A stretch of DNA of 64,000 nucleotides from Escherichia coli (GTDB lineage: Bacteria > Pseudomonadota > Gammaproteobacteria > Enterobacterales > Enterobacteriaceae), in assembly GCF_051903065.1 (NCBI RefSeq), contig NZ_CP178438.1; one strand, given 5' to 3'. The notes under the pieces were generated by a model. The model was not told the origin of the DNA and did not search any database. It saw only the letters and a program-made list of their open reading frames with translations. Position numbers and translations under genes: made by a program. Of the stretch, positions 21,662 through 46,746 are shown one piece after another; positions within the stretch are counted from its first letter, which is position 1, and the number at the start of each line of letters is the position of its first letter.

Positions 21662-21800
21662 AGTTTGCTCCTGCCATAACGTGAAGAAGCAATGACCTGG
21701 TGGTCCGTGACTTCCCTACGCTGGCATTATCCAGATCAGGTGATACGGGTATTTCTCAGCCTTCACGCAGAAGGGCACCCCGAGTCGTTTGGTTGCGATG
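21662..21800 (-). promoter_or_regulatory. TPP riboswitch (thi-box) in thiM 5' leader
   Basis: Minus-strand reads ...cggggtgcccttctgcgtgaaggctgagaaatacccgtatcacctgatctggataatgccagcgtagggaa..., the canonical E. coli thiM aptamer, followed by the SD-sequestering segment ggcaggagcaaactATG. Confidence 0.88.
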
Positions 21801-44100: not shown

Positions 44101-44418
44101 ATGATCGTGCAAAAAGAGCTGGTTGCTATTTACGATTATGAGGTCCCTGTACCTGAAGATCCGTTTTCCTTCAGACTTGAGATCCATAAATGCTCTGAAT
44201 TATTTACAGGTTCCGTCTATCGACGGGAGCGATTCCGGCTACATCCAACATTTCATCAACGTGATCGAGAAGATGCTGACCCGCTAATAAATGATGCGTT
44301 GATTTATATAAGAGATGAGTGTATTGATGAGCGGAAATTACGAGGTAAATCACCTGAAACTGTAATAGCAATTTTTAATCGTGAACTACAGAATATATTC
44401 AACCAAGAAATAGAATAA
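44101..44418 (+). CDS. yehK: Small hypothetical protein YehK
   Basis: 105-aa ORF, AT-rich, immediately downstream of yehI. Confidence 0.7.
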   Translation: MIVQKELVAIYDYEVPVPEDPFSFRLEIHKCSELFTGSVYRRERFRLHPTFHQRDREDADPLINDALIYIRDECIDERKLRGKSPETVIAIFNRELQNIFNQEIE

Positions 44419-44527
44419 TATACTCTAGATAATTCAAGTCGCAGCACATGCAACTTGAAGTATGACGAGTATAGCTTTATTAAAGGGGGAAGCGGTTTTC
44501 CCCCTTAGATGCGTTTCAATTTGCCCG

Positions 44528-44617
44528 TTACTTCAACAAATCAATCAACCGTAACAGAGCCACTAATAACTCCAGTACGGCAATGAGCACGATTAACTTT
44601 TGTGTCAGCGTGTCCAT
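44528..44617 (-). CDS. Type I toxin, ZorO/ZorP-like 29-aa hydrophobic peptide (copy 1)
   Basis: Minus-strand ORF MDTLTQKLIVLIAVLELLVALLRLIDLLK with strong SD (taaggagagcggATG); downstream terminator hairpin gggggaa-gcgg-ttttccccc. Confidence 0.85.
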   Translation of the reverse strand: MDTLTQKLIVLIAVLELLVALLRLIDLLK

Positions 44618-44802
44618 CCGCTCTCCTTATTAAGGAGCGCAACACCAGCACCTTACCCTTACACTGCCTGTCGATACTGGTTTACGTATGTTGGTACGAA
44701 ACGTTGCTCTCCGGATCAGGGCACCGCCTGCGGCACCACCCGTCCAGCAGCCAGGACTTAAAATTGGTCCGATCCGGCACAACCTCCCAACGGGCAGGAT
44801 TA

Positions 44803-44849
44803 TAAATCTCATTCACTGAATTGCAATGGAGTGTGGATATGGTTATAAT
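44803..44849. promoter_or_regulatory. Back-to-back sigma70 promoters sharing one palindromic -35 hexamer TTGCAA (copy 1)
   Basis: -35 ttgcaa 44821-44826; rightward -10 tataat 44844-44849 (17-bp spacer) for orz; leftward -10 (plus-strand attata 44803-44808, 16-bp spacer) for zor. Confidence 0.55.
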
Positions 44850-44856
44850 TTATTCG

Positions 44857-44936
44857 TTGGTACGAAATGTTGCACAATCAGCAAGTTAGCGTCACTGTAG
44901 TAAATAAAAGAACCTGCCTCACCAGCAGGTTTTTTT
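44857..44936 (+). ncRNA. Orz-type antitoxin sRNA (copy 1)
   Basis: Starts after the tataat box, ends at hairpin acctgcctcaccagcaggt + T7; 5' region guugguacgaaauguugc pairs over 18 nt (one G.U) with the zor 5' UTR (plus 44693-44710); ends approximate. Confidence 0.65.
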
Positions 44937-45135
44937 ATTTTCTGCGATCTACTTTCCAGATATTTTTTGCCAATAGCCCACCATAAATATTCACATCCCG
45001 GTCAAATGGTGCGTTGAATATAAAATCGATGAACTTATAAATAAACATGAGTTATATGATGAATTAATAAAAACAGTAATCATTTTATTAAAGGGGGAAG
45101 CGGTTTTCCCCCTTAGATGCGTTTCAATTTGCCCG

Positions 45136-45225
45136 TTACTTCAACAAATCAATCAACCGTAACAGAGCTACTAATAGCTCCAGTACGGCAATGAGCACGG
45201 TTAACTTTTGTGTCAGCGTGTCCAT
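45136..45225 (-). CDS. zorO: Type I toxin ZorO-like 29-aa peptide (copy 2)
   Basis: Minus-strand ORF MDTLTQKLTVLIAVLELLVALLRLIDLLK (differs from copy 1 at residue 9, T vs I); assignment of zorO vs zorP to the two copies is uncertain. Confidence 0.8.
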   Translation of the reverse strand: MDTLTQKLTVLIAVLELLVALLRLIDLLK

Positions 45226-45406
45226 CCGCTCTCCTTATTAAGGAGCGCAACACCAGCACCTTACCCTTACACTGCCTGTCGATACTGGTTTACGTATGTT
45301 GGACCACGATGTTGCACTCCGGATCAGGGCACCACCTGCAGCACCACCCGTCCGGTAGCCAGGACTTGAAATAGGTTCGATCCGGCGCAACGTCCCAACG
45401 GTCTGG

Positions 45407-45457
45407 ATTATAAATCTCATTATCTTAATTGCAACGGGGTCCAGCCGTGGTTATAAT
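45407..45457. promoter_or_regulatory. Back-to-back sigma70 promoters sharing palindromic -35 TTGCAA (copy 2)
   Basis: -35 ttgcaa 45429-45434; rightward tataat 45452-45457; leftward -10 as plus-strand attata 45407-45412. Confidence 0.55.
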
Positions 45458-45464
45458 TCGTTCG

Positions 45465-45547
45465 TTGGAACACGATGTTGCACAGGCTGTGGTGTTAGGC
45501 CTGAAAATAGTAAATAAAAGAACCTGCCTCACCAGCAGGTTTTTTTA
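45465..45547 (+). ncRNA. Orz-type antitoxin sRNA (copy 2)
   Basis: guuggaacacgauguugcac complementary (one mismatch) to the copy-2 zor 5' UTR; terminator acctgcctcaccagcaggt + T-run; ends approximate. Confidence 0.65.
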
Positions 45548-45658
45548 TTTACTATGATCTGCTTTCCAGATATTTTTTGCTCAAACAACTAATGCGCCAA
45601 ACATTTATTGCGCGTAAAATATCGTTTATTTCATTAATACATTTCAGGGATGAATATA

Positions 45659-46746
45659 TGTCACCGCAGAATAATCATCTGCAGCGTCCGCCTGCTGCTG
45701 TGTTATACGCCGATGAACTGGCAAAATTAAAACAAAATGATACCGCACCTTGCCCGCCCGGTTGGCAGTTAAGTTTGCCTGCGGCCCGTGCTTTTATCCT
45801 TGGCGATAGCGCGCAAAATATTAGCCGTAAAGTGGTGATTAGTCCCTCCGCTGTCGAACGTATGTTAGTCACTCTTGCCACCGGACGCGGTTTGATGTTG
45901 GTGGGGGAACCTGGCACCGCAAAATCTCTCCTGTCTGAATTACTGGCAACCGCTATTAGCGGCGATGCCGGGTTAACCATCCAGGGCGGTGCATCTACTA
46001 CCGAAGATCAAATCAAGTACGGCTGGAACTACGCCCTGCTTATCAATCATGGTCCATCAACGGAAGCGCTGGTCCCTGCCCCGCTTTACCAGGGAATGCG
46101 CGACGGCAAAATCGTCCGTTTTGAAGAGATAACGCGTACACCGCTGGAAGTGCAAGACTGTCTGTTAGGTATGCTTTCTGACAGGGTGATGACGGTGCCG
46201 GAACTCACTGGTGAAGCCAGTCAGCTCTATGCGCGAGAAGGCTTTAATATTATTGCCACTGCCAATACCCGCGATCGCGGCGTCAATGAAATGAGTGCTG
46301 CGCTAAAGCGTCGCTTCGATTTTGAAACTGTCTTTCCGATTATGGATTTCGCCCAGGAGCTGGAGCTTGTCGCCAGTGCTTCGGCGCGTTTGCTGGCCCA
46401 TAGCGGTATTCCGCATAAAGTGCCTGACGCGGTACTGGAGTTACTGGTCCGCACTTTCCGCGATCTGCGTGCCAACGGCGAAAAGAAAACGTCAATGGAT
46501 ACACTAACAGCGATTATGTCCACCGCTGAAGCCGTGAACGTGGCCCACGCTGTGGGCGTCCGCGCCTGGTTTTTGGCGAATCGCGCAGGTGAGCCAGCCG
46601 ATCTGGTGGACTGTATTGCCGGAACCATCGTTAAAGATAACGAAGAAGATCGCGCTCGTCTGCGCCGTTACTTCGAACAGCGTGTCGCCACACATAAAGA
46701 AGCTCACTGGCAGGCTTATTATCAAGCCCGCCACCGCCTGCCGTGA
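45659..46746 (+). CDS. yehL: MoxR-like AAA+ ATPase YehL
   Basis: 362 aa from MSPQNNHLQ (SD agggatgaatatATG); Walker A GEPGTAKS, Walker B-like IVRFEEI. Confidence 0.88.

What the first reader, a model, noticed from the sequence alone, without database searches (positions are those of the whole stretch)
44690..45320. Cognate-specific co-variation between each Orz sRNA and its own zor 5' UTR target
Copy 1 sRNA 5' region gttggtacgaaatgttgc against copy 1 UTR gttggtacgaaacgttgc gives one G.U pair. Copy 2 sRNA gttggaacacgatgttgcac against copy 2 UTR gttggaccacgatgttgcac gives one mismatch. Cross-pairing copy 1 with copy 2 introduces 3 to 4 mismatches in the core. The duplicated units therefore appear to have diverged in a compensatory way that keeps each antitoxin matched to its own toxin, which would make the two units insulated from each other rather than redundant.
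Basis: seen in the sequence. Interest (0 to 1): 0.55.

Follow-up and report, generated by a model that had tools for sequence, protein, structure and literature searches.

The report
Known zorO-orzO / zorP-orzP antitoxin specificity
Two tandem E. coli toxin/small-RNA antitoxin pairs each keep a matching 18-20 base pairing patch that differs between the pairs, which is real but was already shown by experiment in 2014 to make the antitoxin specific for its own toxin.

Summary
The window (about 44480-45550) holds the tandem zorO-orzO / zorP-orzP type I toxin-antitoxin locus of E. coli, between yehK and yehL. Each Orz sRNA 5' end matches a patch in the 5' UTR of its own divergently transcribed zor mRNA. 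Copy 1 pairs over 18 nt with one G.U. Copy 2 pairs at 19 of 20 nt with one A.G mismatch at +7. Four positions (+6, +9, +10, +11) differ between the copies on both partners and stay Watson-Crick. Predicted duplexes are -31.3 and -32.7 kcal/mol for own pairs, against -23.1 and -18.9 for crossed pairs.

Wen, Won and Fozo (NAR 2014, PMC3919570) showed that OrzP cannot repress zorO. They showed that +9..+11 ("V1", GAA vs ACG) sets specificity and that compensatory zorO mutations restore repression. A 2024 mSystems survey (PMC11264685) noted that the variable pairing region may prevent crosstalk and described a third type, zorQ/orzQ.

I add three things: a five-position covariation count across natural types, a type census in 5,426 genomes, and rare arrays in which short gene conversion swapped only the UTR patch. 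I found no test of the reverse direction (OrzO on zorP).

The parts
44528..44617 (-). zor copy 1 toxin ORF, 29 aa (MDTLTQKLIVLIAVLELLVALLRLIDLLK). It differs from the commonest Zor peptide in my sample at residue 9 (I for T).
   Evidence: translation; RBS AAGGAG at 44623-44628 equals mRNA +164..+169 as published
44484..44791 (-). zorO mRNA. The TSS at 44791 is inferred from the 174-nt 5' UTR. The transcript ends at a terminator hairpin around 44484-44506.
   Evidence: -10 TATAAT at 44799-44804 (- strand) with -35 TTGCAA; ATG at +175, which matches the published 174-nt UTR
44690..44707 (-). [quoted passage not shown]
   Evidence: published EAP +73..+102 and OrzO pairing at its 3' end
44821..44826 (.). 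palindromic -35 hexamer TTGCAA shared by the divergent zorO and orzO promoters
   Evidence: the same hexamer is scored on both strands, with a 16-nt spacer to the zor -10 and a 17-nt spacer to the orz -10 (44844-44849)
44856..44938 (+). orzO sRNA. Pairing patch +1..+18 = 44856-44873; V1 (+9..+11, GAA) = 44864-44866; terminator hairpin 44909-44931 followed by a T run.
   Evidence: Rfam RF02083, 88.8 bits, at 44863-44936; V1 numbering fits Wen et al.; fold
45136..45225 (-). zor copy 2 toxin ORF, 29 aa (MDTLTQKLTVLIAVLELLVALLRLIDLLK)
45298..45317 (-). OrzP target patch in the zorP 5' UTR (mRNA +83..+102; TSS inferred at 45399)
45429..45434 (.). shared -35 TTGCAA of the zorP and orzP promoters (-10 boxes at 45407-45412 on the - strand and 45452-45457 on the + strand)
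45464..45548 (+). orzP sRNA. Pairing patch +1..+20 = 45464-45483; V1 (ACG) = 45472-45474. It lies outside the finding's stated range.
   Evidence: Rfam RF02083, 99.9 bits, at 45471-45546

Best explanation
This is the known tandem type I toxin-antitoxin locus zorO-orzO / zorP-orzP of E. coli, in the yehK-yehL intergenic region. Each 608-bp unit encodes a 29-aa membrane toxin on the - strand, behind a 174-nt structured 5' UTR. It also encodes a divergently transcribed sRNA of about 83-85 nt on the + strand. The first 18-20 nt of the sRNA pair with mRNA +83/85..+102, at the 3' end of the 'exposed after processing' region that probably acts as a ribosome standby site. This pairing blocks translation and triggers RNase III-dependent decay (published, not tested here). 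The two units carry different alleles of the pairing patch. The main difference is at +6 and at +9..+11 (V1: GAA in O, ACG in P), and the change is mirrored in the UTR. So each sRNA forms a long stable duplex only with its own mRNA, and the units are insulated rather than redundant. Shown here: the anatomy, the complementarity, the energy gap and the covariation. Shown in the literature: OrzO represses zorO, OrzP does not, and V1 decides. Inferred: OrzP represses zorP, and OrzO does not repress zorP.
For: Rfam RF02083 hits above the gathering score for both sRNAs. The locus is 100% identical to E. coli 23CRST027 between yehK and yehL, and is present in most of 5,426 complete genomes. ORFs, promoters and the 174-nt UTR geometry fit the published coordinates. 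Duplex energies for the first 20 nt of each sRNA against the UTR are -31.3 (O/O), -32.7 (P/P), -23.1 (O/P) and -18.9 (P/O) kcal/mol. Across 5 sRNA types and 3 UTR types, cognate duplexes are -25.8 to -34.4 (major types -31.3 to -34.4; the L017 variant -25.8), against -15.4 to -27.5 for non-cognate ones. No crossed pair has more than 9 contiguous pairs, whereas Wen et al. found that 15 continuous or 17 discontinuous pairs are needed. In the covariation count, +5, +6, +9, +10 and +11 change on both sides. 94% of cells are paired, against 28-40% with slid partners, and 0/500 shuffles reach the observed score. In the census, each UTR type is about as frequent as, or rarer than, its cognate sRNA type: O 1255 vs 1261; P 2864 vs 4695; Q 1098 vs 856+238. 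Published experiments are in PMC3919570, PMC5397157 and PMC11264685.
Against: Only the OrzP-on-zorO direction was tested experimentally in the papers found; zorP toxicity and its repression by OrzP were not. The crossed OrzO x zorP duplex is still fairly stable (-23.1 kcal/mol; only 1/1000 shuffles does as well), so partial cross-repression at high sRNA levels is not excluded by calculation. Energy calculations ignore kinetics and the proposed kissing-loop initiation. Rare natural units pair a UTR with a non-cognate neighbouring sRNA. One short metagenome contig (L027) might represent a toxin without any cognate sRNA.
Confidence: 0.93

Rival explanations
1. The units are functionally redundant. 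The patch differences are neutral drift, and either sRNA can silence either toxin.
For: The units are about 90% identical overall and the toxins differ by one residue. The crossed OrzO x zorP duplex is still -23.1 kcal/mol.
Against: OrzP failed to rescue cells from zorO, and a V1 swap transferred specificity. Crossed pairs have at most 9 contiguous pairs, against the 15 needed. Differences on both partners are mirrored at 4-5 positions, which neutral drift does not predict.
Confidence: 0.03
2. The function is the same, but the history differs. The matched patches did not arise by stepwise compensatory point mutation after a local duplication. O, P and Q are old specificity alleles, assembled into arrays in various combinations and exchanged as cassettes by short-tract gene conversion or recombination.
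For: The same yehK-yehL site carries O-P, Q1-P, Q1-O, Q1-O-P-like, P-only and Q2-only arrays. E. whittamii has O then P with identical patches. Within groups defined by flanking sequence, patches show whole-type switches and never single-base variants, and one sRNA body carries three different 5' patches. In two complete genomes a short conversion tract replaced just the UTR patch: unit positions 213-239 in JNE23-001 and 207-219 in SL112.
Against: Conversion moves existing alleles but does not explain how a new matched pair first arises. sRNA and UTR patches of one type are not identical copies: +7 is mismatched in P, Q1 and Q2, and there are G.U pairs at +5, +8 or +13. So simple copying of one patch onto the other is not the whole story. 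The sample is small (43 units).
Confidence: 0.45
3. The complementarity is a by-product of a direct DNA repeat with no RNA-level role.
For: On the + strand the sRNA 5' end and the UTR patch are direct repeats 166 bp apart.
Against: Both copies lie exactly at the sRNA +1 and in the mapped OrzO binding site of the mRNA. The first 18 nt of OrzO grafted onto other sRNAs suffice for repression.
Confidence: 0.01

Closest known systems
zorO-orzO / zorP-orzP of E. coli O157:H7 EDL933 (Fozo et al. 2010; Wen, Won, Fozo 2014, PMC3919570; Rfam RF02083)
   Same: The locus, the gene order, the sRNA 5' patches and the V1 triplets (GAA, ACG) are the same. So are the 174-nt UTR geometry and the promoters. O157-like genomes carry patches identical to those of the window.
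   Different: Only allelic details differ. The copy 1 toxin has I at residue 9, where the unit-1 toxin of the O157-like genomes L001 and L004 has T. The copy 2 toxin has T3, where unit 2 of L001 and L004 has S3, the T3S difference published for ZorP. The window is 100% identical to strain 23CRST027, not to an O157 strain.
zorQ/orzQ, the third locus type (mSystems 2024, PMC11264685)
   Same: The architecture and the principle are the same: a distinct patch allele (V1 GCC) mirrored in the UTR.
   Different: It is not present in this window. I see two sRNA sub-alleles (Q1 and Q2) pairing with one Q UTR patch.
tisB-istR1 and shoB-ohsC (divergent, trans-encoded type I antitoxins of E. coli)
   Same: The sRNA is transcribed divergently. 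Its 5' end pairs far upstream of the RBS in a long, processed 5' UTR at a standby-type site, and RNase III cleaves the duplex.
   Different: These are single-copy loci with no paralogous partner to discriminate against. Their sequences are unrelated.
ibs-Sib paralogous type I pairs of E. coli
   Same: They are multi-copy type I systems in which each sRNA discriminates its own toxin mRNA through short recognition domains. Wen et al. cite them as a precedent.
   Different: Sib RNAs are fully antisense (cis-encoded) and have two recognition domains, whereas zor-orz has one short trans patch. I made no sequence comparison here.

Membership tests
zor-orz type I toxin-antitoxin (Rfam RF02083 OrzO-P) | the sRNA matches the OrzO-P covariance model above the gathering score | tested here: met
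   88.8 and 99.9 bits against a gathering score of 60
zor-orz type I toxin-antitoxin (Rfam RF02083 OrzO-P) | a divergently transcribed 29-aa hydrophobic Zor ORF behind a 174-nt 5' UTR | tested here: met
   ORFs at 44528-44617 and 45136-45225 on the - strand; ATG at +175 from the inferred TSS; RBS at +164..+169
zor-orz type I toxin-antitoxin (Rfam RF02083 OrzO-P) | 18-19 nt complementarity between the sRNA 5' end and the EAP region of the toxin UTR | tested here: met
   18 nt (O) and 19/20 nt (P) at mRNA +85/83..+102
zor-orz type I toxin-antitoxin (Rfam RF02083 OrzO-P) | V1 triplet at +9..+11 is GAA in OrzO and ACG in OrzP, mirrored in the cognate UTR | tested here: met
   44864-44866 GAA with UTR GAA; 45472-45474 ACG with UTR ACG
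zor-orz type I toxin-antitoxin (Rfam RF02083 OrzO-P) | toxin overexpression is toxic and is rescued only by the cognate sRNA, dependent on RNase III | not testable with these tools
   Published for zorO with OrzO and OrzP. Not published, as far as I could search, for zorP.
insulated (orthogonal) paralogous sRNA-target pairs | the cognate duplex is markedly more stable than every crossed duplex | tested here: met
   Cognate -25.8 to -34.4 kcal/mol (major types -31.3 to -34.4; L017 variant -25.8), against non-cognate -15.4 to -27.5. The longest crossed run is 9 pairs or fewer.
insulated (orthogonal) paralogous sRNA-target pairs | no cross-repression in vivo in both directions | not testable with these tools
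   One direction is published (OrzP does not repress zorO). I did not find the reverse.

The most novel reading that the evidence does not exclude
The pairing patch may behave as a movable specificity cassette. E. coli populations hold at least three UTR alleles and four sRNA alleles. Short gene-conversion tracts of a few tens of bases occasionally overwrite only the UTR patch of one unit with that of its neighbour. This rewires that toxin to the neighbour's antitoxin and leaves an orphan sRNA but, in the two complete genomes examined, no orphan toxin. If general, it would be a concrete route by which type I TA arrays change wiring under the constraint that a toxin must never lose its antitoxin. 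It would also explain the abundant orphan orzP genes. The conserved +7 mismatch in P, Q1 and Q2 could be a tuned feature. The untested reverse direction (OrzO on zorP) could still reveal asymmetric crosstalk.
Probability: 0.3. Interest if true: 0.35.

Novelty: already known. Interest (0 to 1): 0.12.

Why it matters
This is a textbook-style example of how duplicated RNA-regulated toxin modules avoid crosstalk through a few mirrored base changes. The principle and the key nucleotides were established experimentally in 2014 and surveyed across E. coli in 2024, so the finding adds no new biology. It is useful mainly as a correct annotation, because RefSeq/PGAP leaves these genes unannotated. It also gives a small lead on how patch alleles are shuffled between units.

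Tried and rejected
1. I tested whether patches are more conserved than the rest of the unit. One search used a fuzzy pattern that hit the wrong site. One search grouped units by the patch itself, so its '0/120 polymorphic columns' (Fisher p = 0.0005) is circular and I discard it. The non-circular version shows only whole-type switches. The sample is too small for a rate claim.

2. The metagenome and species-genome scans with a 32-nt conserved UTR word gave only 18 and 3 loci. That was enough to find variants but not enough for statistics.

3. The weak Rfam hits near the locus (STnc370, Thr and Trp leaders, isrH, CrcZ, and a - strand OrzO-P hit at 45516-45626) are all far below their gathering scores. 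Most of them overlap the orz sRNAs and their terminator hairpins; isrH overlaps the small repeat at 44418-44473, and the CrcZ match (45019-45130) covers the spacer between the units and the 3' end of zor copy 2. I ignored them.

4. Full-length sRNA against full UTR with duplexfold gives unrealistically long interactions (about -53 to -62 kcal/mol), because intramolecular structure is ignored. I used the 5' 20-22 nt and opening energies instead. Opening costs are similar for both copies: about 5.7-6.0 kcal/mol for the processed UTR and about 6.3-6.5 for the sRNA. They therefore do not change the ranking.

5. I checked whether the chimeric metagenome contigs L020 and L027 are assembly artefacts. 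Neither has a match of 99% or better in complete genomes. Analogous chimeras do exist in two complete genomes, so the phenomenon is real. L027 itself remains unresolved.

Full report
**What is there**

Window 44480-45550 contains two tandem 608-bp units, each with the same anatomy.

- On the - strand is a 29-codon ORF: 44528-44617, MDTLTQKLIVLIAVLELLVALLRLIDLLK, and 45136-45225, the same peptide with T at residue 9.
- The ORF is preceded by an AAGGAG ribosome binding site and a long leader.
- On the + strand, transcribed divergently, is a small RNA gene ending in a strong hairpin and a T run.
- Rfam's OrzO-P antitoxin model (RF02083, gathering score 60) matches 44863-44936 at 88.8 bits and 45471-45546 at 99.9 bits.
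- The stretch is 100% identical to E. coli strain 23CRST027. It sits between yehK and yehL, and two-unit versions occur in about 3,390 of 5,426 complete E. coli genomes.
- RefSeq annotation lists nothing between yehK and yehL in any genome I fetched.

**Transcript boundaries**

A consensus scan finds exactly four promoter-like sites in 44400-45700, two per unit. In each unit both promoters use one palindromic TTGCAA hexamer (44821-44826; 45429-45434) as the -35 for both directions. A 16-nt spacer leads to the zor -10, and a 17-nt spacer leads to the orz -10.

Placing sRNA +1 at 44856 and 45464 makes +9..+11 read GAA and ACG. These are the V1 triplets published for OrzO and OrzP.

Placing the zor TSS 174 nt upstream of the ATG (44791; 45399) puts the RBS at +164..+169 and the ATG at +175, as published. 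The complementary patches then fall at mRNA +85..+102 (copy 1) and +83..+102 (copy 2). That is the 3' end of the published 'exposed after processing' (EAP) region, +73..+102, where OrzO was shown by probing to bind. The refutation condition 'stretch lies outside the real transcripts' is therefore not met.

**Checking the observation**

The last lies outside the stated range.

In-register pairing:

| sRNA x mRNA | Pairing |
|---|---|
| OrzO x zorO | 18 contiguous pairs, one U.G at +13 |
| OrzP x zorP | 19/20, one A.G mismatch at +7 |
| OrzO x zorP | 4 mismatches (+6, +7, +10, +11) and a G.U at +9 |
| OrzP x zorO | mismatches at +6, +9, +10 and +19, G.U at +11 and +13 |

Between the two copies, +6, +9, +10 and +11 differ on both partners and remain Watson-Crick.

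**Energies and chance**

Duplex energies for the first 20 nt of each sRNA against the whole UTR:

| Pair | kcal/mol |
|---|---|
| O/O | -31.3 |
| P/P | -32.7 |
| O/P | -23.1 |
| P/O | -18.9 |

In every case the best site is the expected one. Against 1000 shuffles of the sRNA 20-mer, cognate pairs have z of about -7.3 (0/1000). OrzO x zorP is matched by 1/1000 shuffles. OrzP x zorO is indistinguishable from shuffles (103/1000). Opening costs of target and sRNA are similar in both copies, so they do not alter the ranking.

**What the literature already shows**

Wen, Won and Fozo (PMC3919570) named these genes and reported the following:

- OrzO rescues cells from zorO, dependent on RNase III and independent of Hfq.
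- The first 18 nt of OrzO grafted onto IstR or OhsC are sufficient for repression.
- OrzP, expressed at equal levels, does not rescue.
- Changing OrzO V1 from GAA to ACG abolishes repression, and a compensatory zorO V1 mutant restores it.
- Changing OrzP V1 from ACG to GAA makes it repress zorO.
- Repression needs 15 continuous or 17 discontinuous pairs.

Wen et al. 2017 (PMC5397157) add that OrzO pairing at the EAP region also blocks translation, probably by competing with ribosome standby binding.

[quoted passage not shown] It reports that 99.8% of Orz can pair with their cognate zor by the above rules. It also describes a third type, zorQ/orzQ, and widespread orphan orzP genes such as the one in K-12.

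In the papers I could search, only OrzP-on-zorO was tested. Neither zorP toxicity, nor OrzP-on-zorP, nor OrzO-on-zorP appears.

**Independent comparative check**

I analysed 43 complete units from 17 complete genomes, 18 metagenome contigs and 3 other Escherichia species. They fall into these patch classes:

| Type | sRNA patch | UTR patch (same sense) |
|---|---|---|
| O | GTTGGTACGAAATGTTGCAC | GTTGGTACGAAACGTTGCTC |
| P | GTTGGAACACGATGTTGCAC | GTTGGACCACGATGTTGCAC |
| Q1 | GTTGAGATGCCATGTTGCAC | GTTGAGTCGCCATGTTGCAC |
| Q2 | GTTGGGGCGCCATGTTGCAT | same Q UTR patch |

There is also one divergent O-like sRNA variant (L017).

- Cognate duplexes of the four major types are -31.3 to -34.4 kcal/mol, and the L017 variant gives -25.8. 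Non-cognate duplexes are -15.4 to -27.5, and no crossed pair exceeds 9 contiguous pairs.
- On an alignment of the five cognate sRNA:target pairs, five positions (+5, +6, +9, +10, +11) change on both sides. 94% of cells pair, against 28-40% when partners are slid. 0/500 shuffles reach the observed covariation score. Including the two chimeric classes weakens the signal but does not remove it.
- E. whittamii carries O then P with identical patches, so the alleles predate the divergence of E. coli from E. whittamii.

**Census**

I used type-specific 55-nt megablast queries, designed so that other types cannot seed a match.

| Type | Genomes with UTR patch | Genomes with sRNA patch |
|---|---|---|
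| O | 1,255 | 1,261 |
| P | 2,864 | 4,695 |
| Q | 1,098 | 856 (Q1) + 238 (Q2) |

These are marginal counts only. They fit 'every toxin type is accompanied by its antitoxin type, and orphans are antitoxins'.

**Exceptions**

Four units pair a UTR with a non-cognate neighbouring sRNA.

- Complete genome JNE23-001 has the array Q/Q1, O/O, Q-UTR + orzP. Its third unit is P-type throughout, except for a Q tract at unit positions 213-239 and position 286. The UTR patch occupies positions 209-228.
- Complete genome SL112 has the array P-UTR + orzQ1, P/P. Its first unit is Q1-type, except for a P tract at 207-219.

These look like short gene conversions of just the target patch from the neighbouring unit. 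In both genomes the converted toxin still has a cognate sRNA in the array, and the leftover orphan is an sRNA.

- Metagenome contig L020 is similar: orzQ1 lies upstream and the tract spans 207-303.
- L027 is a 1.36-kb contig with a crossover between positions 315 and 347. It could be a toxin without a cognate sRNA, or it could be a chimeric assembly. I cannot tell.

Such chimeras are rare. No complete genome matches either chimeric segment at 99% or better. One genome reaches 97.1% and one reaches 95.9%.

**Mechanism: what is shown and what is inferred**

- Shown here: two insulated sRNA/UTR pairs by sequence, position and thermodynamics, plus natural covariation.
- Shown in the literature: 5'-end pairing at the EAP region represses zorO by RNase III-dependent decay and translational block, and V1 decides between OrzO and OrzP.
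- Inferred: the same holds for zorP-orzP, and OrzO does not repress zorP. The crossed duplex of -23.1 kcal/mol leaves some room for weak crosstalk.

The evolutionary route also remains open. It could be stepwise compensatory mutation or exchange of old alleles. The mix of array types, the whole-type switches within flank-defined groups and the conversion tracts favour a role for allele exchange.

**Verdict**

Interest is low. The small residue of novelty is the patch-only conversion events, the conserved +7 mismatch in three of the four types, and the untested reverse cross.

Noticed in passing
window 44821-44826 and 45429-45434: One palindromic TTGCAA hexamer serves as the -35 for both divergent promoters of each unit (zor: 16-nt spacer; orz: 17-nt spacer). 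Toxin and antitoxin transcription therefore start from physically overlapping promoters.
   Followed up: partly
L039 (NZ_AP045064.1, strain JNE23-001) 1914-3318; L037 (NZ_CP043486.1, strain SL112) 1219-2014: In two complete genomes, a short tract covering just the UTR pairing patch has been replaced by the neighbouring unit's allele. The result is two toxins wired to one sRNA plus an orphan sRNA.
   Followed up: yes
L027 (OJMD01002987.1) 241-428: This 1.36-kb metagenome contig has a P-type zor UTR next to orzQ1, followed by the yehL-side flank. If real and single-copy, it would be a toxin without a cognate antitoxin. It could equally be a chimeric assembly.
   Followed up: partly
sRNA position +7: window 45470 with 45304; also L006, L011: Position +7 is a mismatch in the P, Q1 and Q2 cognate pairs (A.G, A.A, G.A) and is paired only in O. 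A mismatch at the same place in three types may be tolerated or may be tuned.
   Followed up: partly
L017 7328-7515; L011 and L013: sRNAs with nearly the same body (+21..+58) carry three different 5' patches: Q1, Q2 and an O-like variant, GTTGGTGCGAAATATTGCAT, which sits next to an O-type UTR. This suggests the patch changes independently of the rest of the sRNA.
   Followed up: partly
window 44528-44617 and 45136-45225: The copy 1 toxin has I at residue 9, where most units in my sample have T. The copy 2 toxin lacks the T3S change seen in unit 2 of the O157-like genomes L001, L003 and L004. Metagenome locus L019 has lost the stop codon (...LLKQWAN).
   Followed up: no
window 44418-44473: A small repeated element lies just downstream of yehK. 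It matches other places in E. coli genomes (hits H29 and H30; median of 5 places per genome for the whole query). It also gives a weak partial Rfam isrH hit, well below the gathering score.
   Followed up: no
L014 (K-12 ER2796) 432-453: K-12 keeps an orphan orzP with the same 5' patch but no zor gene, as already reported (OrzPmg). In the census, sRNA-P is found in 4,695 genomes against 2,864 with the P-type UTR.
   Followed up: partly
window 3923-4008 (+) and 21696-21792 (-): There is a CyaR/RyeE sRNA (100.7 bits) and a TPP riboswitch (71.2 bits) elsewhere in the window. Both are ordinary, known elements.
   Followed up: no
window 44400-45660 and every fetched RefSeq locus: PGAP/RefSeq annotates neither the zor ORFs nor the orz sRNAs in any of the 17 complete genomes inspected.
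   Followed up: no
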